This document shows, in pieces, positions 5,220-33,427 of a stretch of DNA of 64,000 nt. How positions within the stretch are numbered: the first letter of the stretch is position 1; the number at the start of each line of letters is the position of its first letter. The DNA lies in IMG/VR virus record IMGVR_UViG_3300028738_000008; one strand, 5' to 3'. Made by a program: the position numbers and the translations under genes. The notes below the pieces were generated by a model. The model worked only from the letters and a program-made list of their open reading frames with translations, had not been told where the DNA came from and searched no databases. This stretch comes from a virus (lineage: Duplodnaviria > Caudoviricetes).

Positions 5220-5303
5220 TCAATGATTTCGTTTCACAATTCATGAAATAATTTACAGAATTTCATGAATTGTGAAACTTTTTCAAAATATTTTGTATTT
5301 ATA

Positions 5304-5334
5304 TTTGCAAGTTACAAATTAATGATTACCTTTG
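5304..5334 (+). promoter_or_regulatory. Bacteroidota housekeeping-sigma promoter of tRNA operon 1
   Basis: TTTG-N19-TACCTTTG. Confidence 0.85.
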
Positions 5335-5363
5335 TACCGAAATAAAATTTTAAGAAATATACA

Positions 5364-5435
5364 ATGAGAACAATTTTTAACATAGTACCGCAGCATCAAC
5401 CACAACCCTTGAAGTATCTTCAATCGAATGGCTGA
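5364..5435 (+). CDS. Leader peptide 1 MRTIFNIVPQHQPQPLKYLQSNG (Pro/Gln/His sensor)
   Basis: CCG CAG CAT CAA CCA CAA CCC run, located between promoter and terminator of the Pro/His/Gln tRNA cluster. Confidence 0.85.
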   Translation: MRTIFNIVPQHQPQPLKYLQSNG

Positions 5436-5463
5436 ACTATGTAAAAAATAAACATACATAATG

Positions 5464-5500
5464 ATCCCCTTTAATTGAAAGATTAAAGGGGATTTTTTTT
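5464..5500 (+). terminator. Attenuator terminator 1
   Basis: ATCCCCTTTAAT-tgaaag-ATTAAAGGGGAT plus T run, 2 nt before the first tRNA. Confidence 0.9.
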
Positions 5501-5502
5501 AT

Positions 5503-5587
5503 CTAGGCGTAGCCCTGTAGTTGGTAGCAGTCCTGATTTGGGATCAGGCGTGGTAACACCTCGTGAGTTCGACCCTCACCGCTTAGA
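5503..5587 (+). tRNA. tRNA-Pro(TGG) with long variable arm
   Basis: Acceptor CTAGGCG/CGCTTAG; anticodon arm CCTGA-TTTGGGA-TCAGG; 14-nt extra arm GTG-GTAA-CAC; T arm GTGAG-TTCGACC-CTCAC. Confidence 0.85.
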
Positions 5588-5597
5588 CAAAATTTAT

Positions 5598-5674
5598 CTG
5601 GGAGTTATGCAGAGGCAATACAACGGTATTTTGGAAATATCGGCTCGTGAGTTCGATTCTCACCTCTCAGACCA
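5598..5674 (+). tRNA. tRNA-Pro(TGG)
   Basis: Acceptor CTGGGAG/CTCTCAG; loop TTTGGAA; T arm; encoded CCA. Confidence 0.85.
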
Positions 5675-5702
5675 CTGATTATCAGTTCTTTGAATAATTT
5701 AT

Positions 5703-5775
5703 AGAGTAGTATATCAATTGGCAGATTACCGCATTCGGGATGCGGAGGCTCTGGATTCGAGTTCCAGTTACTCTA
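5703..5775 (+). tRNA. tRNA-Pro(CGG)
   Basis: CCGCA-TTCGGGA-TGCGG; acceptor AGAGTAG/TTACTCT. Confidence 0.85.
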
Positions 5776-5785
5776 CTGATTAGAT

Positions 5786-5859
5786 GGTGTCTATAGTGCA
5801 ATTGGTAGCATGACAGATTGTGGTTCTGTTGATGACAGGTTCGAACCCTGCTAGACACA
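5786..5859 (+). tRNA. tRNA-His(GTG)
   Basis: ACAGA-TTGTGGT-TCTGT; G-1 present; A at position 73. Confidence 0.85.
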
Positions 5860-5887
5860 CTAAATGCGAATTGCATTTTATTAAAAT

Positions 5888-5962
5888 GGTGATTGTAGCT
5901 TAAACGGATAAAGCGCATGCCTGTGAAGCATGTATATGCGAGATCGTACCTCGTCTTTCACC
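5888..5962 (+). tRNA. tRNA-His(GTG)
   Basis: CATGC-CTGTGAA-GCATG; G-1:C73. Confidence 0.8.
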
Positions 5963-5982
5963 CTAATTTTAAATTAAAGATC

Positions 5983-6747
5983 ATGTATTACGTTGTACAG
6001 AAGAATGTTTTTAGGGAAGAAAATTACGATAATTTGATTATCGCTTTGAATCGGTTGGAGTTGCCATATGAGATCGTTGATGTATTACCTTTTGTAGACA
6101 CCTTCGAATTCAAGACAACCAGAAAGGATGTTTTTCCTTTCGGAGCTGTTAAAATGTCAAGAATTGCCAAAGAATTGGACTGGAATCCAGGCTCTCAATT
6201 ATGTGACAATCATGACTATAACGTATATAGTAAGTATTATAAAGAAAACTTGCTGAACTACGATTCAAGGATTATCAGGTTTGGCGATGATTTCTTTCAA
6301 ACAGAAAGGTTCTTTGCACGTCCGACATTGGATACTAAAGTGTTTACTGGTCATGTGTTTGACATGGGCGAATGGATTAAGTTCAGAGACGAATCCATTG
6401 TCAATGGACATAGCACTTTACTGAACACAGATACTGAAATTCAGATTTCTTCTGTAAAAAATATACAGAAAGAAATAAGGTTTTGGATTGTGAAAGGCGA
6501 AATCGCCACAGCAAGTCAGTATTCTCTGGGTGGAAGATTCTGTGTGAATGAAAACGTCGATCAGTCGGCATATGACTTCGTAAACAGAATGATTAAGATA
6601 TTCGAATTGAATGATACCTTTATTATAGATGCATGCCTTGTTAAAGGCGAATACAAAATAGTTGAATGCGGTTGCACAAACAGTGCTGGCTTCTATCGAG
6701 CAGATATGCAAAAGCTGCTTATGAAATTGGAAGACGCTTTCAATTAA
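5983..6747 (+). CDS. ATP-grasp domain protein (DUF4343-like)
   Basis: FFARPTLDTKVFTG, EIRFWIVKGEI and IVECGCTNSAGFY motifs; start moved to ATG 5983 because 5917 lies inside tRNA-His. Confidence 0.75.
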   Translation: MYYVVQKNVFREENYDNLIIALNRLELPYEIVDVLPFVDTFEFKTTRKDVFPFGAVKMSRIAKELDWNPGSQLCDNHDYNVYSKYYKENLLNYDSRIIRFGDDFFQTERFFARPTLDTKVFTGHVFDMGEWIKFRDESIVNGHSTLLNTDTEIQISSVKNIQKEIRFWIVKGEIATASQYSLGGRFCVNENVDQSAYDFVNRMIKIFELNDTFIIDACLVKGEYKIVECGCTNSAGFYRADMQKLLMKLEDAFN

Positions 6748-6754
6748 TATAAAT

Positions 6755-6830
6755 TGCCTTATGGTGTAATTGGCAACACACCTGATTCTGATTCAGTTGA
6801 GTGAAGGTTCGAGTCCTTCTAAGGCATCCA
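6755..6830 (+). tRNA. tRNA-Gln(CTG)
   Basis: TGCCTTA/TAAGGCA acceptor; loop TTCTGAT; encoded CCA. Confidence 0.9.
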
Positions 6831-6837
6831 ACTATAT

Positions 6838-6909
6838 TGCCCTGTTATGTAATGGCTAGCATACGACACTTTGACTGTCGGAGTTACGGTTCGAATCCGT
6901 ACAGGGCAA
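6838..6909 (+). tRNA. tRNA-Gln(TTG)
   Basis: CGACA-CTTTGAC-TGTCG; TGCCCTG/CAGGGCA. Confidence 0.9.
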
Positions 6910-6995
6910 CAAAATTTAACGATATATTAGCGTTATTTAGAATCATTTTTTTTACATAATGTGCATATTTTTACTATTTATAGGTAAAATATACC

Positions 6996-8877: not shown

Positions 8878-8908
8878 TTTGCAGGTATCAAAAATTGTAT
8901 TACCTTTG
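8878..8908 (+). promoter_or_regulatory. Bacteroidota housekeeping-sigma promoter of tRNA operon 2
   Basis: TTTG-N19-TACCTTTG. Confidence 0.85.
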
Positions 8909-8938: not shown

Positions 8939-9031
8939 ATGAGAAATTTACTTAACATAGAATTATTGGCAGTGGATCAGGTCAACCTCCTATTATGGGC
9001 GGATGAAGATAGATTATGCCATGCTGGTTAA
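8939..9031 (+). CDS. Leader peptide 2 MRNLLNIELLAVDQVNLLLWADEDRLCHAG (Leu/Trp/Ala/Asp/Glu/Val sensor)
   Basis: Consecutive L L L W A D E D codons; lies between promoter and terminator. Confidence 0.85.
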   Translation: MRNLLNIELLAVDQVNLLLWADEDRLCHAG

Positions 9032-9056: not shown

Positions 9057-9087
9057 AAACCCCCAGCATACGTGTTGGGGGTTTTTT
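9057..9087 (+). terminator. Attenuator terminator 2
   Basis: AAACCCCCAGCA-tacg-TGTTGGGGGTTT plus T run. Confidence 0.9.
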
Positions 9088-9131
9088 GTTTATGTACGTT
9101 ATTTGACATGTTGGGTTATAAAATTAAAATT

Positions 9132-9203
9132 GGTCTATTGGGGTATGGGTTATCCTTTGTGGTTGTCAGCCATGAGAAGCGAGTTCAAGTCTCGCATAGA
9201 CCG
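9132..9203 (+). tRNA. tRNA-Asp(GTC)
   Basis: Loop TTGTCAG; GGTCTAT/ATAGACC; G73. Confidence 0.85.
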
Positions 9204-9262
9204 CACTAAGCATTATGAGAGTACTTGCCACTAGGGTAAGCCAACCTAAATTGCTTTTTCAT

Positions 9263-9336
9263 ACCTTCGTAGGGGAGTGGTCGTCCCTGTCGCACTGTCT
9301 ATGCGAAGATCGCCAGTTCAAATCTGGTCGGGGGTG
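9263..9336 (+). tRNA. tRNA-Asp(GTC)
   Basis: TCGCA-CTGTCTA-TGCGA; G73. Confidence 0.85.
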
Positions 9337-9365
9337 CTGGTTTCATAATAAATGAAACATTTAAT

Positions 9366-9438
9366 GCTCGGTTCATCTAACTGGTTAGGATAGGTGACCT
9401 TCAATCATCCAATACGGATTCAAGTTCCGTACCGAGTA
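9366..9438 (+). tRNA. tRNA-Glu(TTC)
   Basis: GGTGA-CCTTCAA-TCATC; GCTCGGT/ACCGAGT. Confidence 0.85.
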
Positions 9439-9448
9439 CTTTTTTCAT

Positions 9449-9523
9449 GCTCCTATCGTCTAGTTGGTTCAAGGCGTCTGTTTTACAAGCAGAATATCGG
9501 TGGTTCGAATCCATCTGGGAGCA
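9449..9523 (+). tRNA. tRNA-Val(TAC)
   Basis: TCTGT-TTTACAA-GCAGA. Confidence 0.9.
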
Positions 9524-9532
9524 CAAATTTAT

Positions 9533-9605
9533 GGCTTAGTAGACCAACGGCAGAGTCATCAGACTTAAACCCTGTACAGTGTGGGTTCGAATCCCACCTA
9601 AGCTA
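9533..9605 (+). tRNA. tRNA-Leu(TAA), short variable region
   Basis: Loop CTTAAAC; GGCTTAG/CTAAGCT; A73; imperfect anticodon stem. Confidence 0.75.
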
Positions 9606-9612
9606 CAAATAT

Positions 9613-9686
9613 GGCTCAGTATCCCAATTGGCAGAGGAAGTTGACTCAAAAACAACTAGTTGTCGGTTCGAATCCGACTTGAGCTA
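9613..9686 (+). tRNA. tRNA-Leu(CAA), short variable region
   Basis: GTTGA-CTCAAAA-ACAAC. Confidence 0.8.
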
Positions 9687-9697
9687 CAATATAATAT

Positions 9698-9770
9698 GGA
9701 TCGGTAGACCAACGGCAGAGTCACTTGTTTTAGAAGCAAGCCAGTGAGGGTTCGAATCCCTCTCGATCTA
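9698..9770 (+). tRNA. tRNA-Leu(TAG), short variable region
   Basis: CTTGT-TTTAGAA-GCAAG. Confidence 0.85.
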
Positions 9771-9780
9771 CAATATTTAT

Positions 9781-9867
9781 GGGGAATTGATGGAATGGTA
9801 GACATCCTAGTTTTAGAAACTAGTGCGAAATAATAGTAGCGTGTGAGTTCGAGTCTCACATTCCTCA
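9781..9867 (+). tRNA. tRNA-Leu(TAG), long variable arm
   Basis: CTAGT-TTTAGAA-ACTAG; GGGGAAT/ATTCCTC. Confidence 0.9.
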
Positions 9868-9986
9868 CGCAATATTCAATGGGAACGCATGTGTTAACAT
9901 CGTGGCGTCCGTCACGTAGATGGGAAACAGAACAGGGAGCATGCCTAGAATCTCGTTTAGGGTTGGAGATTTACTTTAATAATTAT

Positions 9987-10060
9987 GGGGCAGTAGCTCA
10001 ATTGGCTAGAGCACTACACTTGCAATGTAGAGGTTGTGGAATCGTCCTCCATCTGCTCCA
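9987..10060 (+). tRNA. tRNA-Ala(TGC)
   Basis: CTACA-CTTGCAA-TGTAG; G3:U70 pair. Confidence 0.9.
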
Positions 10061-10088
10061 CTGATAATCAGGAGATTATCTATTTTAC

Positions 10089-10178
10089 ACGTCTATGTCC
10101 GAGTGGCTTAAGGAACTGGTCTCCAAAACCAGCGTGGGTGACACCATATCCAAGGTTCGAATCCTTGTTGGCGTGCCA
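10089..10178 (+). tRNA. tRNA with Trp anticodon (CCA) on a Ser-like long-variable-arm body
   Basis: CTGGT-CTCCAAA-ACCAG; D region TGTCCGAGTGGCTTAAGGAA; 18-nt extra arm; G73; encoded CCA. Confidence 0.75.
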
Positions 10179-24810: not shown

Positions 24811-24840
24811 CAACAAAGAAAAAATAAAGTTGCTTAATTT

Positions 24841-24866
24841 TGTAACCTTTTCAAAGTTTCTTCGTA
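24841..24866 (+). promoter_or_regulatory. Internal ECF-type promoter
   Basis: TGTAAC-N16-CGTA. Confidence 0.7.
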
Positions 24867-24942
24867 TAATAGAAAAAGATTTATGAGTACAAAAATTAAA
24901 TGATGATTTTTCGAACCATTGTAGTATTTATATTAAAATAGT

Positions 24943-25614
24943 ATGATGAAAGATCAAATTATCGAATTACGAAAATTGGGAAATTCGTACAACGAAATAG
25001 TAAGTAAACTTGGTTGTACAAAGTCAAATGTCTCATATCATTGTGGCAAATTAGGAATTAATTTACATAATGATAATCCGAAAAAAATAAGTGAACAAAT
25101 CGTAGAGTCAATAAGAAACGATAAAATTTCGTTGTCGTCTAAAGAGATTGCTTTAAAATATAATGTTAGCGTAAGTACAGTGAATAAATTTACAAAGATG
25201 AAGTCAAGGTCTTTAGATATAAAACCTGAAAGTAGCGTATGTTTAAATTGTGGTAAAGAAACACCGTATAGAAAAGAGAAACGATTTTGTAGCAATCAAT
25301 GCGGTGCTCAATATATACACAAATTGGCTTATAAAGATTTTTTAGAAAATAACGAAAAATATTGTGTTGGAAATTACACAGCTAAAAATTTTAAGGACTT
25401 TATTGTAGCTGAGCAAAATGATAAATGCTTGATATGTGGAATGTCAGCAATTTGGGAAAACAAAATATTAGTTTTCGTTTTAGATCACATTGACGGTAAT
25501 GCTTCAAATAACAAAAGAGAAAATTTAAGATTAATTTGTCCTAATTGCGATTCGCAAACAAGCACATTTAAATCGAAAACGAAGGTTTCAATGAGAAGAA
25601 ATTATAATAAATAA
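24943..25614 (+). mobile_element. HNH homing endonuclease with N-terminal HTH, inserted in the tRNA operon
   Basis: LDHIDGNASNNKRENLRLICPNCDSQT; CLNC...FCSNQC zinc finger. Confidence 0.9.
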
Positions 25615-25619
25615 TATAT

Positions 25620-25702
25620 GGAAGGTAGCATGCAGTGGTGCATAAGTGGCTTTGAACACCATGCCGATGTAAAAGTCGAGAGTTCGATTCTTTTACCTTC
25701 CG
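25620..25702 (+). tRNA. tRNA-Ser(TGA)
   Basis: GGAAGGT/ACCTTCC; loop TTTGAAC; long arm; G73. Confidence 0.85.
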
Positions 25703-25709
25703 CTTAGAA

Positions 25710-26015
25710 GTAAGATTAGTCTGAGACAAAGTACACGTCATGGCAACCACGCCAGCTTCTACACGCATAGCTGATTGATTAACAGAGTCATTCAGTCTGG
25801 TACTTAGAAGTAGTGTTAGCAATTGTTCTGTTTATTTGCTAATGATATTTATTAATTGCCGTTTCCGAATTGCTTAAGATGCTGCCATTAAGATTCTGTT
25901 TGGGACAATTAGAAAGGATGTGTTGAACTACCCGATTATAAAAGGTCTCCTGAGATTTTATGAATCTTTGTAATAAGGTTCGTGGTCGTGAGTAAGAGGC
26001 TCACATCGGAAATAA
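25710..26015 (+). ncRNA. Candidate structured ncRNA (about 300 nt) between tRNA-Ser and tRNA-Phe
   Basis: No credible ORF; hairpins CAGCT/AGCTG, TTAGCAA/TTGCTAA, GTGAG/CTCAC; long-range TTTCCGA/TCGGAAA. Confidence 0.35.
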
Positions 26016-26028
26016 AATATTTAAAATT

Positions 26029-26102
26029 GGGGAGGTAGCTCAGTTGGTAGTAGCGGTGGATTGAAGATCCACAGGTCGTCGGTTCAAGTCCGACTCTCCC
26101 CA
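26029..26102 (+). tRNA. tRNA-Phe(GAA)
   Basis: GTGGA-TTGAAGA-TCCAC. Confidence 0.92.
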
Positions 26103-26183
26103 CGAAAAACAATGGTGCTTAGTATTGTTACTTCAATGGATGAAACAAAACACAATGCTGCAAAATTCCTTGTTTTTATTATC

Positions 26184-26257
26184 GCAGTGATGGTGTTTAA
26201 TGGTTAGCATATAACCTTGCCAAGGTTGAGGTGGAAGTTCGAATCTTCTTCATTGCT
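26184..26257 (+). tRNA. tRNA-Gly(GCC)
   Basis: TAACC-TTGCCAA-GGTTG; U73. Confidence 0.9.
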
Positions 26258-26329
26258 CTTTTTTTATATTTATTATTTCGGTGATGAAATCTAAATATTT
26301 TTTTGATGTTCGCTCTTTGACATATTTTT

Positions 26330-26468
26330 GAGCAGATGTATCGATAACATAATAATCAATAGAATTATTGGCGCATGCTGTTATTTTTAAATTATCATTG
26401 ATCTGGGTTTGACGTAATTTTCTCTCGCCAAAAACAGGTAAATTAAATTTAATCCCGATCACCTGCTC
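26330..26468 (+). ncRNA. Candidate rod-shaped ncRNA (6S-like architecture)
   Basis: GAGCAG..ATCG / CGAT..CTGCTC closing stem, AT-rich bubble, inner TTGGCG/CGCCAA stem. Confidence 0.35.
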
Positions 26469-26481
26469 CACAAATTAAATT

Positions 26482-26567
26482 GCAGTAATCGCATAGTTGG
26501 TCGATTGCGCCAGCCTTCCAAGCTGGAAAGAGAAATCACGGCGAGGGTTCGAATCCCTCTTACTGCT
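26482..26567 (+). tRNA. tRNA-Gly(TCC) with long variable region
   Basis: CCAGC-CTTCCAA-GCTGG; 16-nt variable region; U73. Confidence 0.85.
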
Positions 26568-26583
26568 CAATAAATTGTTAATA

Positions 26584-26856
26584 ATGAAACTGAAAAACAT
26601 ATTGAAAGCCTTATGGGGTCAGTTACCAGCACAAAGAGCATTTAGGAATTTTTTTATCACTGGAAATGCTTTAGGCATGTTTAACATAAGAAGTCATCAG
26701 TGTGAAAATGGTACTCCAAAGGTTATGTACAATACCAGAGCCACAGCACAAAAAGCTGCTGATAGCATGGGTAAAAAAATGAATAAGCATTTCTCGGTTT
26801 ATAAATGTATCTATTGTGATGGGTATCACTTAGGTAAGAATAGAGATAATAAATAG
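26584..26856 (+). CDS. Hypothetical protein with YKCxxCxGYH motif
   Basis: ATG 26584; C-terminal zinc-finger-like motif. Confidence 0.7.
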   Translation: MKLKNILKALWGQLPAQRAFRNFFITGNALGMFNIRSHQCENGTPKVMYNTRATAQKAADSMGKKMNKHFSVYKCIYCDGYHLGKNRDNK

Positions 26857-26927
26857 TGGTATAGCTCAGTTGGTAGAGCATGGGTATCATAAGCCCTGTG
26901 TCATAGGTTCGATTCCTATTGCCGCTA
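26855..26927 (+). tRNA. tRNA-Met/Ile2(CAT)
   Basis: GGGT-ATCATAA-GCCC; paired 1:72 (elongator type). Confidence 0.85.
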
Positions 26928-26945
26928 CAAACTAATAAATATATA

Positions 26946-27176
26946 ATGGTAGAAAGTAAGTTTAATTCACACGGAAAATTGAAAATGGATAATGATACAA
27001 AAATCAAGGCTGGCGATACTGTTGAATACAGCTATGCTGATAATAACCCAAACGATAGAACAAGAAAAATGATCGTAACGCTTAGAGGCACTTGGGATGG
27101 TGATAAGGTTTCATTCAACGATAAGAAAAATACCGTAGTTAAAACTACTCATTGGCTAACATTAATAGAAGAATAA
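26946..27176 (+). CDS. Hypothetical protein
   Basis: ATG 26946, between tRNAs. Confidence 0.6.
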   Translation: MVESKFNSHGKLKMDNDTKIKAGDTVEYSYADNNPNDRTRKMIVTLRGTWDGDKVSFNDKKNTVVKTTHWLTLIEE

Positions 27177-27177
27177 T

Positions 27178-27315
27178 ATGCAAGAAAAAGAAGATGCTAT
27201 TGAGGAAAGGGATGATAAGCTTTCATACGAGAATTATAATCATGTTGATGGCAAATTTCATAAAGTAAGACGTAAGAATACGCATCTTACGCCAAAGAAG
27301 AAAAAACGAAAGTAA
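27178..27315 (+). CDS. Small basic hypothetical protein (45 aa)
   Basis: MQEKED...HLTPKKKKRK, translated by eye. Confidence 0.55.
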   Translation: MQEKEDAIEERDDKLSYENYNHVDGKFHKVRRKNTHLTPKKKKRK

Positions 27316-27323
27316 AAATATAT

Positions 27324-27413
27324 TGCGAGTTAGAGAAGTCAGGCCTATCTCACCAGTCTCATAAGCTGGAGTACCGTTTAAAAGTATCGTTGGTTCGAAT
27401 CCAGCACTCGCTT
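27324..27413 (+). tRNA. tRNA-Met(CAT), initiator-like 1:72 mismatch, long variable arm
   Basis: CCAGT-CTCATAA-GCTGG; 19-nt variable region. Confidence 0.8.
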
Positions 27414-27427
27414 CATTAAAAACACAC

Positions 27428-27512
27428 TGCGGAATGGTGTAATTGGCAACACACGAGGCTCATAACCTTGAGACATTAAATGCTTGTATTGGTTCGAATC
27501 CAATTTCCGCTT
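27428..27512 (+). tRNA. tRNA-Met(CAT), initiator-like 1:72 mismatch, long variable arm
   Basis: CGAGG-CTCATAA-CCTTG; 17-nt variable region. Confidence 0.8.
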
Positions 27513-27526
27513 CTATAATTATAATT

Positions 27527-27600
27527 GGTCGTGTGGCGCAATTGGTTAGCGCAATTGTCTTATACACAAAAGGTTGTGGGTTCAAGTCCCACCATGACCA
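27527..27600 (+). tRNA. tRNA-Ile(TAT)
   Basis: TTGT-CTTATAC-ACAA; GGTCGTG/CATGACC. Confidence 0.8.
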
Positions 27601-27612
27601 CAACAAATACAT

Positions 27613-27693
27613 GCTTAGTTAGCCAAGTGGCAAGGCAGCAGACTGTTAATCTGCCGAAGAAATTCATCGTAGGTTCGATCCCTACACTAAGCG
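27613..27693 (+). tRNA. tRNA-Asn(GTT) with long variable region
   Basis: GCAGA-CTGTTAA-TCTGC; 14-nt variable GAA-GAAA-TTC; G73. Confidence 0.88.
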
Positions 27694-27762
27694 CAAATAC
27701 TTTATATTTTTTGTTGCATATCTAATTTATTATCATTAAATTTGCAGCCTAAAACATTTAAT

Positions 27763-27987
27763 ATGATAGTAAAATATGTACATCATGACACTGAGGTAAG
27801 TGTGCAAGAAGAAATGCTTGGAAAACATCGTGAGCATTGCTTATGTTATCAGGGTTGTAAGTTCTTCAAACCTGAAACCAGAAAAGGAAATTGTGGCATT
27901 GCAAATGCCATTTATAAGAATTGCGTTCTTTACGGTGTTGTAACACCAGTTTGGGAATGTCCTAAATACGAGAAGGAAACTGTGTAA
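27763..27987 (+). CDS. Cys-rich hypothetical protein
   Basis: HCLCYQGC...C...C...WECP. Confidence 0.7.
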   Translation: MIVKYVHHDTEVSVQEEMLGKHREHCLCYQGCKFFKPETRKGNCGIANAIYKNCVLYGVVTPVWECPKYEKETV

Positions 27988-28235
27988 TGGATGAATTAAT
28001 ACCAGCACCTGAACAGAATATGTTCAACATTGAAGTTTATTTGGACGACGGAAGGGTATTCGAATACAAAGTAGCGTCAGCCGAAAAAGTTCGAGAACAT
28101 GCTCATGCCATTATCATGACAGGCTACAGGCATAATGATGGATTTTTATTTGAACATTATCCACCGCACAGAATCTTGAAGGTCAAGAGCAATAACATAA
28201 GCACTCAGTATAAAGACGTAACAAAAGGAACGTAA
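27987..28235 (+). CDS. Hypothetical protein
   Basis: Coupled ORF. Confidence 0.75.
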   Translation: MDELIPAPEQNMFNIEVYLDDGRVFEYKVASAEKVREHAHAIIMTGYRHNDGFLFEHYPPHRILKVKSNNISTQYKDVTKGT

Positions 28236-28540
28236 TGGAATTACAAAAATTGATTTTAGCCGAGGACGTTTACGACGCCTTGGAAACAGGTAAGAATTGT
28301 ACGATCAGAAAAGGTCGCAGAGACATTCAATTAGACAAGCTTTTATTTGAATCGCTTGACGAAAAAAGAACAACAGTCGTAAATGTCGTAATGACAATTC
28401 ATTGTAAGCTACAGCATATTCCAGACGAGTTTGTATGGAACGACGGATTCACAGGACATGAAAACATGCTTACAGAAATGAAAAGGTTTTATCCTGACAT
28501 TCAAATGGATACCGAATGTACTGTAATTATATTTGAATAA
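28235..28540 (+). CDS. ASCH/PUA-like domain protein
   Basis: GKNCTIRKG...DGF...LxxFYP pattern. Confidence 0.65.
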   Translation: MELQKLILAEDVYDALETGKNCTIRKGRRDIQLDKLLFESLDEKRTTVVNVVMTIHCKLQHIPDEFVWNDGFTGHENMLTEMKRFYPDIQMDTECTVIIFE

Positions 28541-28662
28541 TGAATTTCGAGACATTATTGGCAATAATTATAGCAATTCCATTTTCAATGATTTGTCTAC
28601 GTTGCACATTGAAAAATTGTGAGAATCCTTCATATGAATCATGGAGAATTGAGAACGAATAA
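28540..28662 (+). CDS. Small membrane peptide (40 aa)
   Basis: TAATG coupling; hydrophobic N-terminus. Confidence 0.4.
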   Translation: MNFETLLAIIIAIPFSMICLRCTLKNCENPSYESWRIENE

Positions 28663-28728
28663 AAATATAAATGCTGGAACAACTCTGTACGTGAGCCAGC
28701 TACTATTGCAATAGTAACGTACACTCAC

Positions 28729-28800
28729 GCCGATATCATATAATTGGTATTATGCTGGCTCTGTAACCCAGACATCGGGAATCGTCCTCTCGTATCGGCT
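28729..28800 (+). tRNA. tRNA-Thr(TGT)
   Basis: GCCGATA/TATCGGC Thr-type acceptor; loop TCTGTAA (atypical C33). Confidence 0.7.
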
Positions 28801-28806
28801 CAATAT

Positions 28807-28880
28807 GCATCCTTAGCTATAATTGGTAGAGCACCTGTTTAGTAAGCAGGGGGTTGTCGGTTCGAGTCCGTCAGGATGCT
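28807..28880 (+). tRNA. tRNA-Thr(AGT)
   Basis: CCTGT-TTAGTAA-GCAGG; GCATCCT/AGGATGC. Confidence 0.85.
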
Positions 28881-28901
28881 CAAACATTTAAATTAAAAAC
28901 A

Positions 28902-29126
28902 ATGGTAAATACATTAAAGGGTAAATTGATTAAAACTGTTATAAAGAGTGCTTGCAGAGCAAAATTTACTAAAGAGAAGGTGCAAGAGTATCTAAAGGGA
29001 TATTTAGCATTTGAGACAACTGTAACAAATTATTCGCTTGATGTAGATTCAGCATATTTTGATATTGTCTATGTGGACAATCATCAAAATCATTTAATTA
29101 GTGTTAATATAAAAATCGTAAAATAA
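28902..29126 (+). CDS. Hypothetical protein
   Basis: ATG 28902 after tRNA-Thr. Confidence 0.6.
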   Translation: MVNTLKGKLIKTVIKSACRAKFTKEKVQEYLKGYLAFETTVTNYSLDVDSAYFDIVYVDNHQNHLISVNIKIVK

Positions 29127-29133
29127 AAGTAAT

Positions 29134-29526
29134 ATGACAATTCAAGATCAGATCAACTTGGACTTGCACCAAGCAATGTTAAACAAAGACAAGGAACTTT
29201 TAACATTTTTAAGGGTTGTAGCCAGTGATTTTTACCTAAAAGGAAAGGTCATTGACGATGAAATGGCGAAGAAAGTTTTACGCACATTAAAGGAAGAAGC
29301 AACCATAATGAACAACCAATACGAAATTGACGTTATTGCTAAGTATTTGCCAGCATTATTAAGCGAAGCAGAGATCAAAGCACTCGTTATTGAGGCTATT
29401 AAAGCCAATGGCTTCGCTGGAATGAAAGACATGGGTAAAGTTATGGCTGAATTAAAAAAGTTGCCTACAGCCTCTCAAATTGACAATACTTATGCCAGTA
29501 AATTAACAAAGGAATTGCTAGCATAG
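29134..29526 (+). CDS. GatB/YqeY domain protein
   Basis: DLHQAMLNKD...KYLPALLSEAEI...KDMGKVM signature. Confidence 0.85.
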   Translation: MTIQDQINLDLHQAMLNKDKELLTFLRVVASDFYLKGKVIDDEMAKKVLRTLKEEATIMNNQYEIDVIAKYLPALLSEAEIKALVIEAIKANGFAGMKDMGKVMAELKKLPTASQIDNTYASKLTKELLA

Positions 29527-29534
29527 TAAAATAT

Positions 29535-29610
29535 GGAGGCGTATCACAACAATCTTCTAAATTGTTTTAGTGTAATTGGACTGATGTGGGTTCGACTCCC
29601 ATCGCCTCTT
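29535..29610 (+). tRNA. Atypical D-armless tRNA-Arg(TCT)
   Basis: GGAGGCG/CGCCTCT, TATCAC linker, AACAAT-CTTCTAA-ATTGTT, TTAGT-GTAATTGG-ACTGA hairpin, T arm GTGGG-TTCGACT-CCCAT. Confidence 0.65.
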
Positions 29611-29627
29611 CAAGAATAATAACTATT

Positions 29628-29903
29628 ATGAATATAATTAAAGTAGAAAACGTAAAAGGCATTGAAAATCGTGCAAAGGGTATGACGGTATTGCACGATT
29701 ATAAAATGGATGGTAGACATGTTCAGTCTGTTATAGTTGTTTTAAGCTATGATGATCTTAAAAGTATTAGCAATATAATCGAAAAATTGAGGGGATATAA
29801 TGTTAGTTGTTTGGTCATGCCAGAAGCTTTACATTTTACTCCAGAAGAAAGAATATTGCTTGAACCTTTATTCAATAAAAGTTTTACTGTAAGTTATTAT
29901 TAA
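29628..29903 (+). CDS. Hypothetical protein
   Basis: ATG 29628. Confidence 0.6.
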   Translation: MNIIKVENVKGIENRAKGMTVLHDYKMDGRHVQSVIVVLSYDDLKSISNIIEKLRGYNVSCLVMPEALHFTPEERILLEPLFNKSFTVSYY

Positions 29904-29908
29904 ACAAT

Positions 29909-29982
29909 GGCTATGTAGCTCAACTGGATGGAGCACTTCGCTACGAACGAAGAGGTTGGGGGTTCGAATCCCTTCATGGTCA
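29909..29982 (+). tRNA. tRNA-Arg(ACG)
   Basis: CTTCG-CTACGAA-CGAAG. Confidence 0.92.
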
Positions 29983-29995
29983 CAAATGCATATAT

Positions 29996-30877
29996 ATGAA
30001 AAAGAACATAGTATTTTATAACGCCTATCATAAAGGTGACTTACATTACTCAAGACAATTTATGAAAGATATTCAAAAGAATCTCTCGACTAAATATGAG
30101 GGTTTCTTTTATTCTGATAAATATCCTGATGATAATATTTATTTTGACTTAGTTGATTTTAAACGACTTCCGTTTAAAAATATGCTTAATGAAAATTCTC
30201 AAGTTACTTATGACGAAAAAAATGTTTACATTAATACTTGGATAGGTCAAGGTGGGTACAAATATGTTGTTGAGTCTAAATGCTCTTTAAAGTCTTATCA
30301 TAATATGTATAAGGACATTTATGTAACATTAGGCATACCTTTAAAGAGAATTGATGCATATATTCCAACGATTGATTATACAAAGCTTGACCAACAGCAT
30401 ACCGTAAATATTTTGAATTTTAACAGTCAGCAAAAACTCACCAACGTAAAGAAGAAGATACTTATATGTAATGGCGATGTATTATCATTTCAGTCTGAGA
30501 ATTTTAAATTTGAATACATTGTAAACATACTTGCATTCATGAATCTCAATTGTACTTTTATATGTACCAGTAAATCTTTTCTACCCAAAACCGATAATGT
30601 TGTTTTCTGCGAGGATATCATAAAAAAAGACGGCTGTGATCTAAATGAAATTTCTTTTCTATCAACATTTTGCGATATAATCGTCGGCAGAGCTTCTGGG
30701 CCTTATGCATTCACGCATGTAAAGGAAAACATTGGGAATAAAGATATCGATTATATTTCATTATGTAAAAATATAGAAGAAGGTATTTGGTATCAGGGCA
30801 AAGCATCTAATAGCTGGTCTGACAAATATACCATAAATAATATTGTTGACATGATTAATTTGAAAATAAATGACTAA
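29996..30877 (+). CDS. Putative glycosyltransferase (GT-B-like)
   Basis: N-terminal HKGDLHYSR and DIIVGRASGP motifs; first gene of the sugar cluster. Confidence 0.55.
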   Translation: MKKNIVFYNAYHKGDLHYSRQFMKDIQKNLSTKYEGFFYSDKYPDDNIYFDLVDFKRLPFKNMLNENSQVTYDEKNVYINTWIGQGGYKYVVESKCSLKSYHNMYKDIYVTLGIPLKRIDAYIPTIDYTKLDQQHTVNILNFNSQQKLTNVKKKILICNGDVLSFQSENFKFEYIVNILAFMNLNCTFICTSKSFLPKTDNVVFCEDIIKKDGCDLNEISFLSTFCDIIVGRASGPYAFTHVKENIGNKDIDYISLCKNIEEGIWYQGKASNSWSDKYTINNIVDMINLKIND

Positions 30878-31541
30878 AAAAGTATTAATTTTTACAAGTG
30901 CTTGGGGCAGAAGACCTCTAATGACACGACAATGCATGCTGAGTGTTATGGCTCAGAGTTATAAAGATCTTGTCCATGCGGTTAACATTACTTTAGACGG
31001 CGACGCAACCACAAAAGATTATTCTCCGATGTATAACGATCTTGTTAAATTGGATAATAGATTTATCGTTAATACCAATCTGAATGGTCATACACATCAT
31101 AATAATATGCTTGCGATAAAGTCCGTTCCAAATTTCATGGAGTATGATTATTTTTTGAAGATGGATAATGACGATATATACAAAACTCATTACGTTGAGA
31201 ATATTGTAAATTTCTTTGAAGCAAATCCTGATGTAGATATTACATCGACAAAAATAACCGATCACTTAAATGGTTATGACCTTTATAAAGGCTCATGGGA
31301 TAATTTTGGCGCAAATCCAGATGGAACAGATTATCATATGCCTATGACATTTGCATTTACACGTAAAGCATTGGAGTCTATTATCGGACTAACAAATATT
31401 TATGGCTTTGATGATATGATGTGGCGTGACGCATGGGCTAAAGATGGCTTGAAGCATAAGGCTGTTCATAATGAAAACGAAGTTATTTTCAATGTACATG
31501 GCGGAAATGTCTCAACAGGCAGTTGGTTAAAAAAGAAATGA
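30870..31541 (+). CDS. GT2-family glycosyltransferase
   Basis: SVMAQSYKD, FLKMDNDDIY (DxD) and FDDMMW motifs. Confidence 0.75.
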   Translation: MTKKVLIFTSAWGRRPLMTRQCMLSVMAQSYKDLVHAVNITLDGDATTKDYSPMYNDLVKLDNRFIVNTNLNGHTHHNNMLAIKSVPNFMEYDYFLKMDNDDIYKTHYVENIVNFFEANPDVDITSTKITDHLNGYDLYKGSWDNFGANPDGTDYHMPMTFAFTRKALESIIGLTNIYGFDDMMWRDAWAKDGLKHKAVHNENEVIFNVHGGNVSTGSWLKKK

Positions 31542-31544
31542 ATC

Positions 31545-32159
31545 ATGATAAATGGAGATCGTAGTAAAATAAATTTATTCGTATGCGTTTATAGTACTGA
31601 GAATAAACGGAGACAGAATGAAATGGATAAATGTTTACGAATTAATAAAAGGAATCAATTTCTCAATGTTGTGCCAATTTATAATCAGGATAGACTAACA
31701 TATAATGATTTCTTTAAAATCATAAATGAAGCGTCTGGAAATGATGACATTAACATAATAACAAATTCGGATATATATTTTGACTCTACTATTGAATTAG
31801 CTCAACATATGTTATATAAGGAATTATATGCATTAACTCGCTGGGATTTAAATGGTAATGACTTAACATTTTATAATCTTAGTTATAGTCAGGATAGCTG
31901 GATATTTAGAGGTAAAATTGAAGATATTAATGCACCTTATGAATTAGGAAAAATGGGATGCGATAATAAAATAGCTTTTGAATTTTTTAATAAAGGTTAT
32001 AAAGTGCTAAACCCATCTAAAAGCATTATTACAACTCATTTACATGAATCAAATTTTAGAACATATGATTATTTTGATCAGTATGATGGGTGGACTCTGT
32101 GGATTGAGCCTCATTTTATTTTTGAAGAGCCTGTATTTAATAAATATATGAAATCCTAA
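31545..32159 (+). CDS. Glycosyltransferase-like protein
   Basis: IITNSDIYFD, ALTRWD, SQDSWIF and GCDNKIA motifs. Confidence 0.6.
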   Translation: MINGDRSKINLFVCVYSTENKRRQNEMDKCLRINKRNQFLNVVPIYNQDRLTYNDFFKIINEASGNDDINIITNSDIYFDSTIELAQHMLYKELYALTRWDLNGNDLTFYNLSYSQDSWIFRGKIEDINAPYELGKMGCDNKIAFEFFNKGYKVLNPSKSIITTHLHESNFRTYDYFDQYDGWTLWIEPHFIFEEPVFNKYMKS

Positions 32160-33146
32160 ATGAGAAAAGCACTAATAATCGGTATAACAGGACAGGACGG
32201 TTCATATCTCGCAGAATATTTATTGGAAATGGGATATGATGTTCACGGTATTGTAAGAAGAAATTCATTACCCAATTCGCAATCGTATCGTCTTGAGTCG
32301 ATAGAAAAAGAAATTCATACCTATTATGGTGACCTATTAGATCAAACATCCTTAGATAGTACTCTTGCTGAGGTTAAACCTGATGAAATTTATAATCTGG
32401 GTGCTCAATCTCATGTTAGAATTAGTTATGATATTCCACAATACACATCACAGGTAAATGCCATAGGCGTTTTAAATCTACTTGAGTCGTATAAGAAAAT
32501 ATGTCCAGAAGCTAAATTATACCAAGCCAGCACTTCCGAAATGTTTGGATTGAATATTGACGATGATAATTTCCAGAGAGAAACAACGGTTTTGAATCCT
32601 GTTTCCCCTTATGGTATATCGAAAGTATTTGCTTATGGCATGGTAAGGCATTATAGACGAGCATATGATTTACATGCATGTAATGGCATTTTGTTTAATC
32701 ATGAATCTCCAAGACGTGGTGACAACTTTGTTACAAGTAAAGTCGTTAAAAGTGCATGTATGATTAAATTAGGACGACAAGAAAAACTTGAATTAGGCAA
32801 TATGGACTCATACAGGGATTGGGGGCATGCTAAGGATTACGTGAAAACAATGCATTTAATTATCAATCATGAAACAGCTGATGATTTTGTTGTTAGCACT
32901 ATGGAAACTCGCTCAGTAAGAGATATGTGCGATATAGTTTTTAAATATTTGGATTTGAATTATATGGATTATGTTGTTCAAAATCCTAAATTTATGAGAG
33001 CAGAGGAATTACCATATTTAAGAGGTGATTCAACAAAAATGAGAAATACGTTCAATTGGAAGCCTACTTACACATTCGAAGAAATGATGTACGAAATGAC
33101 TGCTCATTGGATGGATGTATTACAGGGAATTAAATCAAAAAGATAA
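32160..33146 (+). CDS. gmd: GDP-mannose 4,6-dehydratase
   Basis: GITGQDGSYLAE, YNLGAQSHV, YQASTSEMFG, SPYGISK and NHESPRRG motifs. Confidence 0.95.
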   Translation: MRKALIIGITGQDGSYLAEYLLEMGYDVHGIVRRNSLPNSQSYRLESIEKEIHTYYGDLLDQTSLDSTLAEVKPDEIYNLGAQSHVRISYDIPQYTSQVNAIGVLNLLESYKKICPEAKLYQASTSEMFGLNIDDDNFQRETTVLNPVSPYGISKVFAYGMVRHYRRAYDLHACNGILFNHESPRRGDNFVTSKVVKSACMIKLGRQEKLELGNMDSYRDWGHAKDYVKTMHLIINHETADDFVVSTMETRSVRDMCDIVFKYLDLNYMDYVVQNPKFMRAEELPYLRGDSTKMRNTFNWKPTYTFEEMMYEMTAHWMDVLQGIKSKR

Positions 33147-33159
33147 GAGTTCGATATAA

Positions 33160-33291
33160 TGCAGCGAGAATAAATACATCGAGGTTAAAGGGTATGAAAC
33201 AGAGTTAGATCGAATTAAATGGAGTCAATTTACTGAACCATTGGAAGTTTGGAAGAGAAAAGAATTGTTAAAATTAGGACTAAAATTATAA
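33160..33291 (+). pseudogene. C-terminal remnant of a PD-(D/E)XK-type endonuclease
   Basis: Start-less frame ENKYIEVKGYETELDRIKWSQF, bounded upstream by TAA. Confidence 0.45.
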
Positions 33292-33336
33292 TAATTGACT
33301 TGTATTTGTTAATAATTATAAGTATTTTTGTAAAAT

Positions 33337-33427
33337 GGATAGATGCCAGAGTCTGGTTTATCGGGACAACCTGCTAAGTTGTTGTACGGCGAAAGTCGTG
33401 CCGAGGGTTCGAATCCCTCTCTATCCG
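33337..33427 (+). tRNA. tRNA-Ser(GCT)
   Basis: ACAAC-CTGCTAA-GTTGT; long arm; G73; own TAnnTTTG promoter at about 33323-33330. Confidence 0.92.

What the first reader, a model, noticed from the sequence alone, without database searches (positions are those of the whole stretch)
5296..33427. Four leader-peptide attenuators in front of phage tRNA operons that together partition all 20 amino acids
Seen: each tRNA cluster has the same order: Bacteroidota promoter, 23-48 aa leader ORF, intrinsic terminator, tRNAs. A TATTTATA motif is also nearby in all four. Leader composition mirrors the downstream tRNAs: P/H/Q, then D/E/V/L/A/W, then K/Y, then C/I/S/F/G/M/N/T/R. These sets are 3+6+2+9 = 20 amino acids with no overlap. 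Each leader's 3' part can pair with its terminator (antiterminator). Established: this is the architecture of ribosome-mediated attenuation in amino-acid biosynthesis operons. Inference: the phage senses shortage of charged tRNA by ribosome stalling and transcribes the matching tRNA block on demand, for example after starvation or host anticodon-nuclease attack. I know of no description of this for tRNA operons or phages, but I could not search the literature.
Basis: partly seen in the sequence, partly recalled or inferred. Interest (0 to 1): 0.97.

Follow-up and report, generated by a model that had tools for sequence, protein, structure and literature searches.

The report
Leader-peptide attenuators gating phage tRNA clusters
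A giant phage of Bacteroidota puts a short "test" reading frame and a transcription stop signal in front of each of its four tRNA gene blocks. Each frame is written in the amino acids whose tRNAs lie behind it, so the phage probably makes a tRNA block only when ribosomes run short of those tRNAs.

Summary
The window holds four units, each a Bacteroidota-type promoter, a short ORF (23, 30, 25 and 48 aa), an intrinsic terminator and then tRNAs. The tRNA identities split all 20 amino acids into P/H/Q, D/E/V/L/A/W, K/Y and C/I/S/F/G/M/N/T/R. Each leader is enriched in its own set. None of 200,000 random 3/6/2/9 partitions reaches the observed match.

The same four units occur in uncultured jumbo phages (complete genomes of 349-365 kb) whose leader sequences have diverged. 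Substitutions in the leaders stay inside the set. The Met codon sits in whichever leader lies upstream of a tRNA-Met gene. A segment near each leader's 3' end copies the terminator's 3' arm, so it can pair with the 5' arm as an antiterminator. It pairs best with its own unit's arm (within-type permutation p<5e-5).

In a ribosome-footprint folding model, the antiterminator is lost at about the point where each sensor run ends.

No Rfam family, paper or cultured phage matched.

Best reading (about 0.85): these are ribosome-mediated attenuators that feed back on aminoacyl-tRNA supply. This is a known mechanism applied to a new target, tRNA genes, in a phage. There is no experimental evidence. The antiterminators of units 1 and 2 in the window itself are weak, and unit 4 is not one tight operon.

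The parts
5304..5334 (+). Unit 1 promoter (TTTG-N19-TAccTTTG). TATTTATA lies at 5296-5303.
5364..5435 (+). Leader ORF 1, 23 aa, with the sensor run PQHQPQP (codons CCG CAG CAT CAA CCA CAA CCC).
   Evidence: Conserved in G001, L005 and G002-G005 as PQPQQHPQ or QPQHQPPQ.
5419..5431 (+). Candidate antiterminator strand of unit 1 (TTCAATCGAATGG). It can pair with 5466-5480. It also forms a local hairpin with 5409-5414.
   Evidence: Weak: not better than shuffles. The ribosome-mask model gives P 0.19 without a ribosome, 0.58 at the sensor codons and 0.09 at the stop.
5463..5502 (+). Terminator 1: a 14-bp stem, dG about -18, plus T8. The tRNA-Pro gene starts at 5503.
5503..6910 (+). tRNA cluster 1: Pro(TGG) x2, Pro(CGG), His(GTG) x2, an ATP-grasp ORF at 5917-6747, then Gln(CTG) and Gln(TTG).
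8878..8908 (+). Unit 2 promoter.
8939..9031 (+). Leader ORF 2, 30 aa. In the core ELLAVDQVNLLLWADED, 15 of 17 residues are in the set D/E/V/L/A/W.
9021..9027 (+). Antiterminator strand of unit 2 (ATGCTGG). It pairs with CCAGCAT at 9063-9069 and ends 1 nt before the stop codon.
   Evidence: dG is -9.7, which is not significant against shuffles in this clade. Relatives have 8-12 bp helices with covariation.
9057..9091 (+). Terminator 2.
   Evidence: G001 shows a compensatory C>T / G>A change in the stem.
9102..9117 (+). Conserved motif TTTGACATGTTGG of unknown function, lying ahead of the first tRNA-Asp.
9132..10178 (+). tRNA cluster 2: Asp x2, Glu, Val, Leu x4, Ala, Trp. A terminator at 10178-10216 ends the cluster.
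14903..14934 (+). Unit 3 promoter (CTTG ... TActTTTG). TATTTATA lies at 14895-14902.
14964..15041 (+). Leader ORF 3, 25 aa. 11 of the 24 residues after the start Met are K or Y.
   Evidence: Relatives carry YYYGKKSYKK.
15027..15038 (+). Antiterminator strand of unit 3 (AAGGACTGTGTG). It pairs with the terminator's 5' arm.
   Evidence: dG -10.1, p 0.06. It ranks 1 of 27 against all units' arms.
15066..15101 (+). Terminator 3.
15113..15587 (+). tRNA cluster 3: a Lys-like gene (15113-15184), Lys(TTT), Lys(CTT), Tyr(GTA) x2.
24241..24271 (+). Unit 4 promoter.
24376..24522 (+). Leader ORF 4, 48 aa (an in-frame ATG also lies at 24328). Residues 3-39 are all C/I/S/F/G/M/N/T/R except one Ala.
   Evidence: A metatranscriptome contig covers 24328-24452.
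24499..24511 (+). Antiterminator strand of unit 4 (ATAGATTGGGTTC). It forms 11 pairs with AACCCGATCTA at 24546-24556.
   Evidence: dG -14.6, p 0.013. It ranks 1 of 27.
24545..24581 (+). Terminator 4.
24606..24621 (+). Second copy of the motif TTTGACATGTTGGAAT, lying ahead of tRNA-Cys.
24630..33428 (+). tRNA cluster 4, interrupted by ORFs: Cys, Ile-GAT-like, Phe, Gly x2, CAT x3, Ile(TAT), Asn, Thr, Arg-TCT-like, Arg(ACG), Ser(GCT).

Best explanation
The four units are ribosome-mediated (leader-peptide) transcription attenuators that control phage tRNA genes.

**Proposed sequence of events.** Host RNA polymerase starts at a Bacteroidota sigma-A-type promoter, and a ribosome translates the short leader.
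- If the aminoacyl-tRNAs for the leader's codon run are plentiful, the ribosome runs on to the last codons or the stop. There it covers or melts the antiterminator strand near the leader's 3' end. The GC-rich hairpin plus U-tract then forms, and transcription ends before the tRNAs.
- If any of those aminoacyl-tRNAs is scarce, the ribosome stalls inside the run, upstream of the antiterminator strand. That strand pairs with the terminator's 5' arm. Polymerase reads through into the tRNA block, whose products relieve the shortage. This is a negative feedback loop.

**Coverage.** The four sensors together cover all 20 amino acids. Units 2 and 4 are multi-amino-acid sensors (6 and 9 amino acids).

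**Shown here:** the anatomy, the composition match, conservation, an antiterminator matched to its own terminator, and the geometry.

**Inferred:** translation of the leaders, stalling, the sign and size of the response, and which tRNAs of cluster 4 are really co-transcribed.
For: 1. **Composition match.** Each leader is enriched in the amino acids of its own downstream tRNAs. None of 200,000 random partitions reaches the observed match in the window, or separately in G002, G003, G004 or G005. The true leader-to-cluster assignment is the best of 24 in every genome.
2. **Conservation.** The same four units occur in G001 (close relative) and in G002-G005 (complete 349-365 kb genomes), and single units occur in other IMG/VR and metagenome contigs. 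Mean leader identity is only 0.5-0.6.
3. **Substitutions stay in-set.** T1: 0.59 against a background of 0.07. T2: 0.70 against 0.32. T4: 0.77 against 0.46.
4. **Leader content tracks tRNA content.** Internal Met codons occur in leader 4 only where the CAT-anticodon tRNA genes lie in cluster 4 near its start (window, G001). They occur in leader 2 in every genome with a tRNA-Met downstream of cluster 2, although G001's leader 2 also has them with no tRNA-Met there.
5. **Terminators.** All are canonical. In the T2 alignment 98.8% of cells are paired and 5 pairs covary.
6. **Antiterminator.** A leader 3' segment complementary to the terminator's 5' arm beats shuffles (p<=0.03) in 20 of 27 units. 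It shows 3 covarying pairs in T2. It pairs better with its own arm than with other units' arms (permutation p<5e-5, also when permuting only within a type).
7. **Geometry.** With a 30-nt ribosome mask, predicted antiterminator formation is high while the A site is anywhere in the sensor run, and it drops at about the run's end (sensor > stop, Wilcoxon p=4e-6; window alone).
8. **No room for a separate promoter.** tRNAs start 1 nt (unit 1) and about 12 nt (unit 3) after the T-run.
9. **Frame is preserved.** Leaders keep ATG starts and similar lengths. A 42-nt insertion in G001's leader 2 is in frame.
10. **Weak RNA evidence.** A soil metatranscriptome contig covers the leader-4 region of a G001-like strain.
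Against: - There are no expression, Term-seq or ribosome-profiling data. The one RNA contig could be DNA carry-over.
- In the window's own clade, the unit 1 antiterminator is weak (dG about -4 to -5, no better than shuffles). The unit 2 antiterminator has only 7 bp (p 0.3).
- Within T1 alone covariation is a single pair and is not significant.
- Units 2 and 4 have no obvious anti-antiterminator. Without any translation the model predicts read-through, which differs from the trp paradigm.
- In some relatives' T3 and T4 units the antiterminator strand lies 19-24 nt before the stop. A ribosome parked at the stop would not cover it.
- Cluster 4 in the window is 9 kb long and full of ORFs. Some tRNAs in relatives (Leu-UAA, Leu-CAA, Met, suppressor) lie outside any attenuator.
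- The window's leader 4 has 7 UCN codons but the phage lacks a tRNA-Ser(UGA).
- The sequences compared are related, so counts of pairs and substitutions are not independent events.
Confidence: 0.85

Rival explanations
1. The units sense general translation capacity, not specific tRNAs. The default state is read-through, because the antiterminator is transcribed first. Any efficient translation of the leader switches the tRNA block off. The codon bias only tunes this, or is inherited.
For: In units 2 and 4 the model predicts the antiterminator forms without any ribosome (P 0.65-0.96). No anti-antiterminator was found there.
Against: This does not explain why four leaders carry four disjoint codon sets that match the four tRNA blocks. 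It does not explain why substitutions stay in-set, or why Met codons track the position of tRNA-Met. Several units of types 1 and 3, including the window's own, show low antiterminator probability without a ribosome (0.07-0.35), like the classical three-state attenuators.
Confidence: 0.08
2. The short ORF plus terminator is an independent small gene. The tRNAs are driven by their own promoter, for example the TTGACA-containing motif at 9102 and 24606.
For: TTGACA-N16-TAAAAT scores 11 of 12 against the sigma-70 consensus at 9103-9130. The motif is conserved.
Against: In relatives the motif ends 2-6 nt before the tRNA, so a -10 box and transcription start would fall inside the tRNA. The motif occurs only twice per 350-kb genome. 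It is absent from units 1 and 3, where the tRNA abuts the T-run. Bacteroidota sigma-A uses TTTG/TAnnTTTG rather than TTGACA/TATAAT (established knowledge). This reading also leaves the composition match and the antiterminator unexplained.
Confidence: 0.03
3. The sign is reversed. Stalling uncouples the ribosome from polymerase and increases termination (Rho or polarity), so shortage lowers tRNA output.
For: It is only logically possible, because no expression data exist.
Against: The leader segment that matches its own terminator pairs with the terminator's 5' arm, and it is exposed exactly when the ribosome sits in the sensor run. That predicts read-through on stalling. Positive feedback on shortage would serve no evident purpose.
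Confidence: 0.02
4. The match between leader composition and tRNA sets is chance, and the ORFs are spurious or encode ordinary small peptides.
For: Leader 2 looks like a small hydrophobic peptide. AT-rich genomes have many short ORFs.
Against: None of 200,000 random partitions reaches the match, in five genomes tested separately. The units are conserved across diverged phages with in-set substitutions. Their position between promoter and terminator is fixed.
Confidence: 0.01
5. The leader RNA senses tRNA directly, as a T-box does, with the codon runs acting as specifier sequences. No translation is needed.
For: The regulated system is tRNA-related, as with T-boxes.
Against: No T-box or other Rfam family matches, even at E<=1. 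There is no conserved T-box bulge. The frame is kept, with an ATG and an in-frame indel. Nine amino acids in one leader cannot act as a single specifier.
Confidence: 0.01

Closest known systems
Leader-peptide attenuators of amino-acid biosynthesis operons (trpL, hisL, pheL, leuL, thrL, ilvL/ivbL of Proteobacteria), from my own knowledge
   Same: Same parts in the same order: promoter, short ORF with a run of regulatory codons, mutually exclusive antiterminator and terminator hairpins, and ribosome position as the switch. thrL (Thr+Ile) and ilvL (Ile/Leu/Val) are also multi-amino-acid sensors.
   Different: The regulated genes are tRNAs, not enzymes. The element is in a phage. It has a Bacteroidota promoter. 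Up to nine amino acids are sensed by one leader. Four sensors jointly cover all 20 amino acids. Units 2 and 4 seem to lack the 1:2 anti-antiterminator. No sequence or Rfam family match.
pheM leader of the E. coli pheST operon (phenylalanyl-tRNA synthetase), from my own knowledge
   Same: It is a leader-peptide attenuator that adjusts a component of the translation apparatus to the supply of the cognate aminoacyl-tRNA.
   Different: It regulates a synthetase, for one amino acid, in a cellular genome. Here the tRNA genes themselves are the output.
T-box riboswitches
   Same: They couple tRNA charging status to transcription read-through by a terminator/antiterminator choice.
   Different: T-boxes bind uncharged tRNA directly, have no ORF and have a conserved fold. 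Nothing of that kind is present here.
tRNA gene clusters of large phages (T4, T5, mycobacteriophage arrays, huge phages)
   Same: These are dense phage tRNA arrays interspersed with homing endonuclease genes. Here HNH ORFs appear. Such arrays are thought to compensate for codon usage, host tRNA loss or anticodon nucleases (PMC12409363 for PARIS/AriB).
   Different: No codon-matched leader or attenuator has been described for them in the papers I could search.
Predicted leader-peptide attenuators of Bacteroidota (for example the Bacteroid-trp motif), from memory and not tested beyond the Rfam scan
   Same: They show that ribosome-mediated attenuation is plausible in this host phylum despite its weak use of Shine-Dalgarno sequences.
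   Different: They lie upstream of trp biosynthesis genes. Rfam gave no match to the present leaders.

Membership tests
Ribosome-mediated (leader-peptide) transcription attenuator | A short ORF with a start codon lies close behind a promoter and ahead of the regulated genes. | tested here: met
   Four ORFs of 23-48 aa start 25-105 nt behind TTTG/TAnnTTTG promoters. The ATG, the frame and the length are conserved in relatives.
Ribosome-mediated (leader-peptide) transcription attenuator | A run or enrichment of codons for the amino acid(s) whose supply is sensed, matched to the regulated function. | tested here: met
   Examples: PQHQPQP ahead of Pro/His/Gln tRNAs, and 36 of 37 residues in-set in leader 4.
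Ribosome-mediated (leader-peptide) transcription attenuator | An intrinsic terminator lies between the leader ORF and the regulated genes. | tested here: met
   GC-rich stems with dG of -11 to -22 plus T5-9. They covary in alignment A1.
Ribosome-mediated (leader-peptide) transcription attenuator | An alternative antiterminator helix uses the terminator's 5' arm, and its formation depends on where the ribosome sits. | tested here: met
   It is strong in units 3 and 4 and in all relatives. It is weak in units 1 and 2 of the window's own clade.
Ribosome-mediated (leader-peptide) transcription attenuator | An anti-antiterminator (segment 1:2) gives termination when there is no translation. | tested here: inconclusive
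   In several units of types 1 and 3, including the window's own, the model shows low antiterminator probability without a ribosome (0.07-0.35). Units 2 and 4 do not show this.
Ribosome-mediated (leader-peptide) transcription attenuator | Read-through rises when the cognate aminoacyl-tRNA is limiting, and this depends on leader translation. | not testable with these tools
   This needs infection or reporter experiments. The only data are one metatranscriptome contig over leader 4.
T-box riboswitch | A conserved stem I / specifier loop and a T-box sequence that pairs with the tRNA 3' end. | tested here: not met
   There is no Rfam T-box hit at the gathering threshold or at E<=1.

The most novel reading that the evidence does not exclude
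The four attenuators form a demand-sensing network over all 20 amino acids that makes phage tRNA supply inducible. A tRNA block is transcribed only when the host pool of that block's tRNAs collapses. Causes could be the phage's own host shut-off or tRNA-cleaving defence systems (anticodon nucleases such as PrrC, PARIS/AriB, retron PtuAB). That would make this an inducible counter-defence circuit, and the first case of tRNA genes regulated by leader-peptide attenuation.
Probability: 0.35. Interest if true: 0.95.

Novelty: new variant of a known kind. Interest (0 to 1): 0.9.

Why it matters
Leader-peptide attenuation is a textbook mechanism, but it is known for genes that make amino acids (and one tRNA synthetase operon), not for tRNA genes. 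Here the sensor and the regulated product are two sides of the same molecule: codons in the leader, and the tRNAs that read them behind it. That would give a direct homeostat for decoding capacity.

The finding would explain how huge phages with 30-65 tRNA genes control them. It would give a reason why the amino acids are partitioned into the same four tRNA blocks across a whole family of jumbo phages. It would also make a current question testable: whether phage tRNAs are deployed in response to host tRNA depletion or cleavage.

Multi-amino-acid leaders sensing up to nine amino acids are also compact, portable sensors of specific decoding stress. They could be useful as reporters in Bacteroidota.

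Tried and rejected
- **Mis-set gap in the first scan.** The first promoter-pattern scan used a wrong gap length and found nothing. The corrected scan is.
- **Neighbour-protein search.** The 256-aa neighbour protein gave only weak N-terminal hits, but two of those loci turned out to be relatives.
- **A precedent I recalled from memory did not hold.** I thought E. coli tRNA-Phe gene pheV had a leader peptide. The K-12 sequence shows about 100 nt of plain promoter region and no Phe-rich ORF. One literature search on it returned only coronavirus PHEV papers.
- **No fifth leader.** There is none ahead of the scattered Leu(UAA)/Leu(CAA)/Met tRNAs of relatives, none ahead of the amber-suppressor tRNA, and none at extra regex "promoters" inside cluster 4. 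Those sites lie in or next to ordinary coding sequence.
- **The TTTGACATGYTGGAAT motif is not a promoter.** This reading is rejected for relatives, where the motif abuts the tRNA. RNAalifold suggested GUCGG:UUGAC pairing between the leader end and the motif, but those columns are invariant, so this is not evidence.
- **Weak or unusable alignments.** Covariation in T1 alone is one compensatory pair and not significant. The MAFFT alignment of T4 (A4) misaligned the antiterminator and was not used.
- **No cultured relative.** GenBank phages hold no relative of the region or of two of the units tested, a relative's unit 2 and the window's unit 4.
- **Little RNA data.** The DNA comes from peat metagenomes, and none of the runs found with the 9.9-kb stretch is RNA. 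A separate search found one soil metatranscriptome that gave two specific contigs, one of them over leader 4. That is too thin to show ends or levels.

Full report
**What is in the window.** ARAGORN and Infernal together find 36 tRNA or tRNA-like genes between 5503 and 33428, all on the + strand. They fall into four groups.
- 5503-6910: Pro x3, His x2, Gln x2.
- 9132-10178: Asp x2, Glu, Val, Leu x4, Ala, Trp.
- 15113-15587: a Lys-like gene, Lys x2, Tyr x2.
- 24630-33428: Cys, an odd Ile-GAT-like gene, Phe, Gly x2, three CAT-anticodon tRNAs, Ile-TAT, Asn, Thr, an odd Arg-TCT-like gene, Arg-ACG, Ser-GCT.

An amber-suppressor tRNA (CTA) lies at 16090.

The four amino-acid sets are disjoint and add up to 20.

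Each group is preceded by a Bacteroidota-type promoter (TTTG-N19-TAnnTTTG; CTTG in unit 3), a short ORF and a canonical intrinsic terminator. In unit 1 the first tRNA starts 1 nt after the T-run. In unit 3 it starts about 12 nt after. These tRNAs can therefore only be made by read-through of the terminator.

**Is the composition match more than chance?** Background frequencies were taken from long ORFs of the window and four related phages. Each window leader is enriched in its own set, with binomial p of 1e-6 to 2.5e-4.

The runs are striking. PQHQPQP lies ahead of the Pro/His/Gln tRNAs. In leader 4, 36 of 37 consecutive residues come from the nine-letter set.

I repartitioned the 20 amino acids at random into groups of 3, 6, 2 and 9, 200,000 times. 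No partition reached the observed 76 of 122 in-set residues; the best was 69. Of the 24 ways to assign leaders to clusters, the true one scores highest: 76, against 59 for the runner-up.

**Relatives.** GenBank phages hold nothing similar. IMG/VR does.
- A promoter pattern found a close relative, G001, a 148.5-kb fragment.
- A 16-nt motif between terminator and first tRNA, TTTGACATGYTGGAAT, found about 17 loci in many contigs. Four of these contigs are complete jumbo-phage genomes of 349-365 kb, G002-G005.
- A metagenome scan added further unit-2 variants.
- The window's DNA occurs in many peat metagenomes.

Every complete genome has the same four units in the same order, with the same four tRNA sets. 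The leaders have diverged to a mean identity of 0.5-0.6 but keep their composition.
- Unit 1: PQPQQHPQ or QPQHQPPQ.
- Unit 2: for example MKNLFDILVAVLMVDVLLWAAEEDDLCVVG.
- Unit 3: YYYGKKSYKK.
- Unit 4: for example TTNIFSSISTTTSRIGRTIFCSNFIGRNSN.

The random-partition test gives 0 of 200,000 in each of G002-G005 separately.

At aligned sites where one leader has an in-set residue and another leader differs, the other residue is also in-set far more often than background predicts. The figures are 0.59 against 0.07 for T1, 0.70 against 0.32 for T2, and 0.77 against 0.46 for T4. So selection acts on composition, not on a peptide sequence.

A 42-nt insertion in G001's leader 2 keeps the frame.

One change in tRNA content is tracked by the leaders. 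In the window and G001, CAT-anticodon tRNA genes lie in cluster 4 near its start, and leader 4 has internal Met codons. In the distant relatives a tRNA-Met lies downstream of cluster 2. There leader 2 has internal Met codons and leader 4 has none. The match is not perfect. G001's leader 2 also carries Met codons in its insertion, and G004 has a tRNA-Met in cluster 4 but its leader 4 has Met only at position 2, next to the start.

**The RNA switch.** All terminators are GC-rich stems (dG -11 to -22 kcal/mol) followed by T5-9. In an alignment of seven unit-2 sequences, 98.8% of cells pair and five pairs show compensatory changes.

In every unit, a segment near the leader's 3' end is a near copy of the terminator's 3' arm. 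It can therefore pair with the 5' arm. Examples of leader segment / 5' arm:
- GCAGTCGGGT / ACCCGACTGC
- GAAGTCGGGT / ACCCGGCTTC
- GTTCAGTCGGGT / ACCCGACTGAAC
- GAACGGGGTT / AACCCCGTTC, against GAATGGGG / CCCCATTC in a sister genome
- GATACGGGTTC / GAACCCGTATC
- in the window, TAGATTGGGTT / AACCCGATCTA

These duplexes beat dinucleotide shuffles (p<=0.03) in 20 of 27 units. They show three covarying pairs in the unit-2 alignment. Each leader pairs better with its own terminator arm than with the arms of other units. The summed energy is -398, against -327 +/- 12 for permutations within the same unit type (p<5e-5).

I also modelled a ribosome as a 30-nt unpaired mask and folded the transcript up to the terminator loop. 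The probability that the 5' arm is held by the antiterminator stays high while the A site is anywhere in the sensor run. It falls at about the end of the run, in most of the 27 units (window alone; sensor > stop, Wilcoxon p=4e-6).

That is the geometry an attenuator needs. Stalling on the sensor codons leaves the antiterminator free. Translating past them removes it.

**Weak points.**
- In the window's own clade the unit 1 antiterminator is poor and the unit 2 one has only 7 bp. Neither beats shuffles.
- T1 alone has one compensatory pair, which is not significant.
- Units 2 and 4 show no anti-antiterminator, so without translation they would read through.
- Cluster 4 of the window is long, is interrupted by ORFs including an HNH gene, and has lost the tRNA-Ser(UGA) that G001 has, although leader 4 keeps seven UCN codons.
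- The suppressor tRNA, and some Leu and Met tRNAs of relatives, are outside any attenuator.
- There is no real expression evidence. One soil metatranscriptome contig covers 24328-24452 and continues with G001-like sequence.
- The genomes compared are related, so the counts are not independent events.

**Comparison with what is known.** The architecture is that of the classical leader-peptide attenuators: trpL, hisL, pheL, and thrL and ilvL for several amino acids. pheM of pheST is the nearest in function. The regulated genes here, however, are tRNAs, in a phage, in Bacteroidota, with four sensors that together cover the whole code.

Rfam has no matching family, even at E<=1. Eight targeted full-text searches found no description of a leader peptide or attenuator in front of tRNA genes. 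A precedent I half remembered, E. coli pheV, is not borne out by the sequence.

I file this as a new variant of a known kind. All sequence-level defining features of a ribosome-mediated attenuator are met. The physiological response is untested.

**Verdict.** The proposed triggers, such as host tRNA depletion or anticodon nucleases, remain speculation.

Two features lie inside the units and are unexplained.
- The motif TTCTTTGACATGYTGGAAT occurs exactly twice per genome, just ahead of the first tRNA-Asp and tRNA-Cys.
- In unit 2 of the distant relatives, a helix encloses the terminator. A CTCCTTTCT box pairs with a purine stretch next to the motif, and own partners beat permuted partners (p=7.5e-4).

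Noticed in passing
window 9102-9117 and 24606-24621; relatives L009, L017, L022, L027, L031, L036 and others: The motif (G)TTCTTTGACATGYTGGAAT occurs exactly twice per ~350-kb phage genome, always 2-20 nt upstream of the first tRNA-Asp or tRNA-Cys. It is not a -35/-10 promoter in relatives, and in the 120 hits returned from bacterial genomes no tRNA follows it. Its function is unknown.
   Followed up: partly
L063:6231-6354, L066:6451-6573, L022:1281-1404, L031:3969-4085 and others (unit 2 of relatives): A pyrimidine box CTCCTTTCT(T) upstream of the terminator resembles the 3' end of 16S rRNA. It pairs with a purine stretch just after the T-run, so the helix encloses the terminator. Own partners beat permuted partners (p=7.5e-4). 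A GTAAT..ATTAC hairpin also straddles the leader stop codon.
   Followed up: partly
window 24735-24812 and 29535-29610: These are two tRNA-like genes with anticodons GAT and TCT. Each has a truncated D-arm region and a D-arm-like hairpin (GTGTAATGG..) inserted in the variable region. The first replaces a normal tRNA-Ile(GAT) of the close relative G001.
   Followed up: partly
window 15113-15184: An extra Lys-like tRNA (anticodon TTT) has C at position 33 and a non-canonical T-loop. It sits directly after terminator 3. Infernal scores it 53.5 bits, but ARAGORN misses it.
   Followed up: no
window 16090-16162 and 16550-16879: An amber-suppressor tRNA (CTA) is followed about 390 nt later by a PTH2-like peptidyl-tRNA hydrolase ORF (Pfam 23.9 bits, cut-off 23). 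The ORF has TAG as its third codon, so the full-length enzyme would need the suppressor.
   Followed up: partly
window 24943-25614; L002:2151-2675: HNH homing-endonuclease-like ORFs are inserted between tRNA genes. In the window, one sits where G001 has tRNA-Ser(UGA).
   Followed up: partly
window 5917-6747: An ATP-grasp protein of the R2K clade (Pfam R2K_3, 1e-14) is encoded inside tRNA cluster 1, between the His and Gln tRNAs.
   Followed up: no
window 24287-24331 and 24328-24375: In unit 4 of the window and G001, a conserved 14-aa ORF (MRRRDFILILLKLL) overlaps by ATGA an upstream in-frame extension of leader 4. The AAACTTTT..ACTATTTATA box, which lies upstream of the promoter in units 1-3, lies here inside the transcript.
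   Followed up: no
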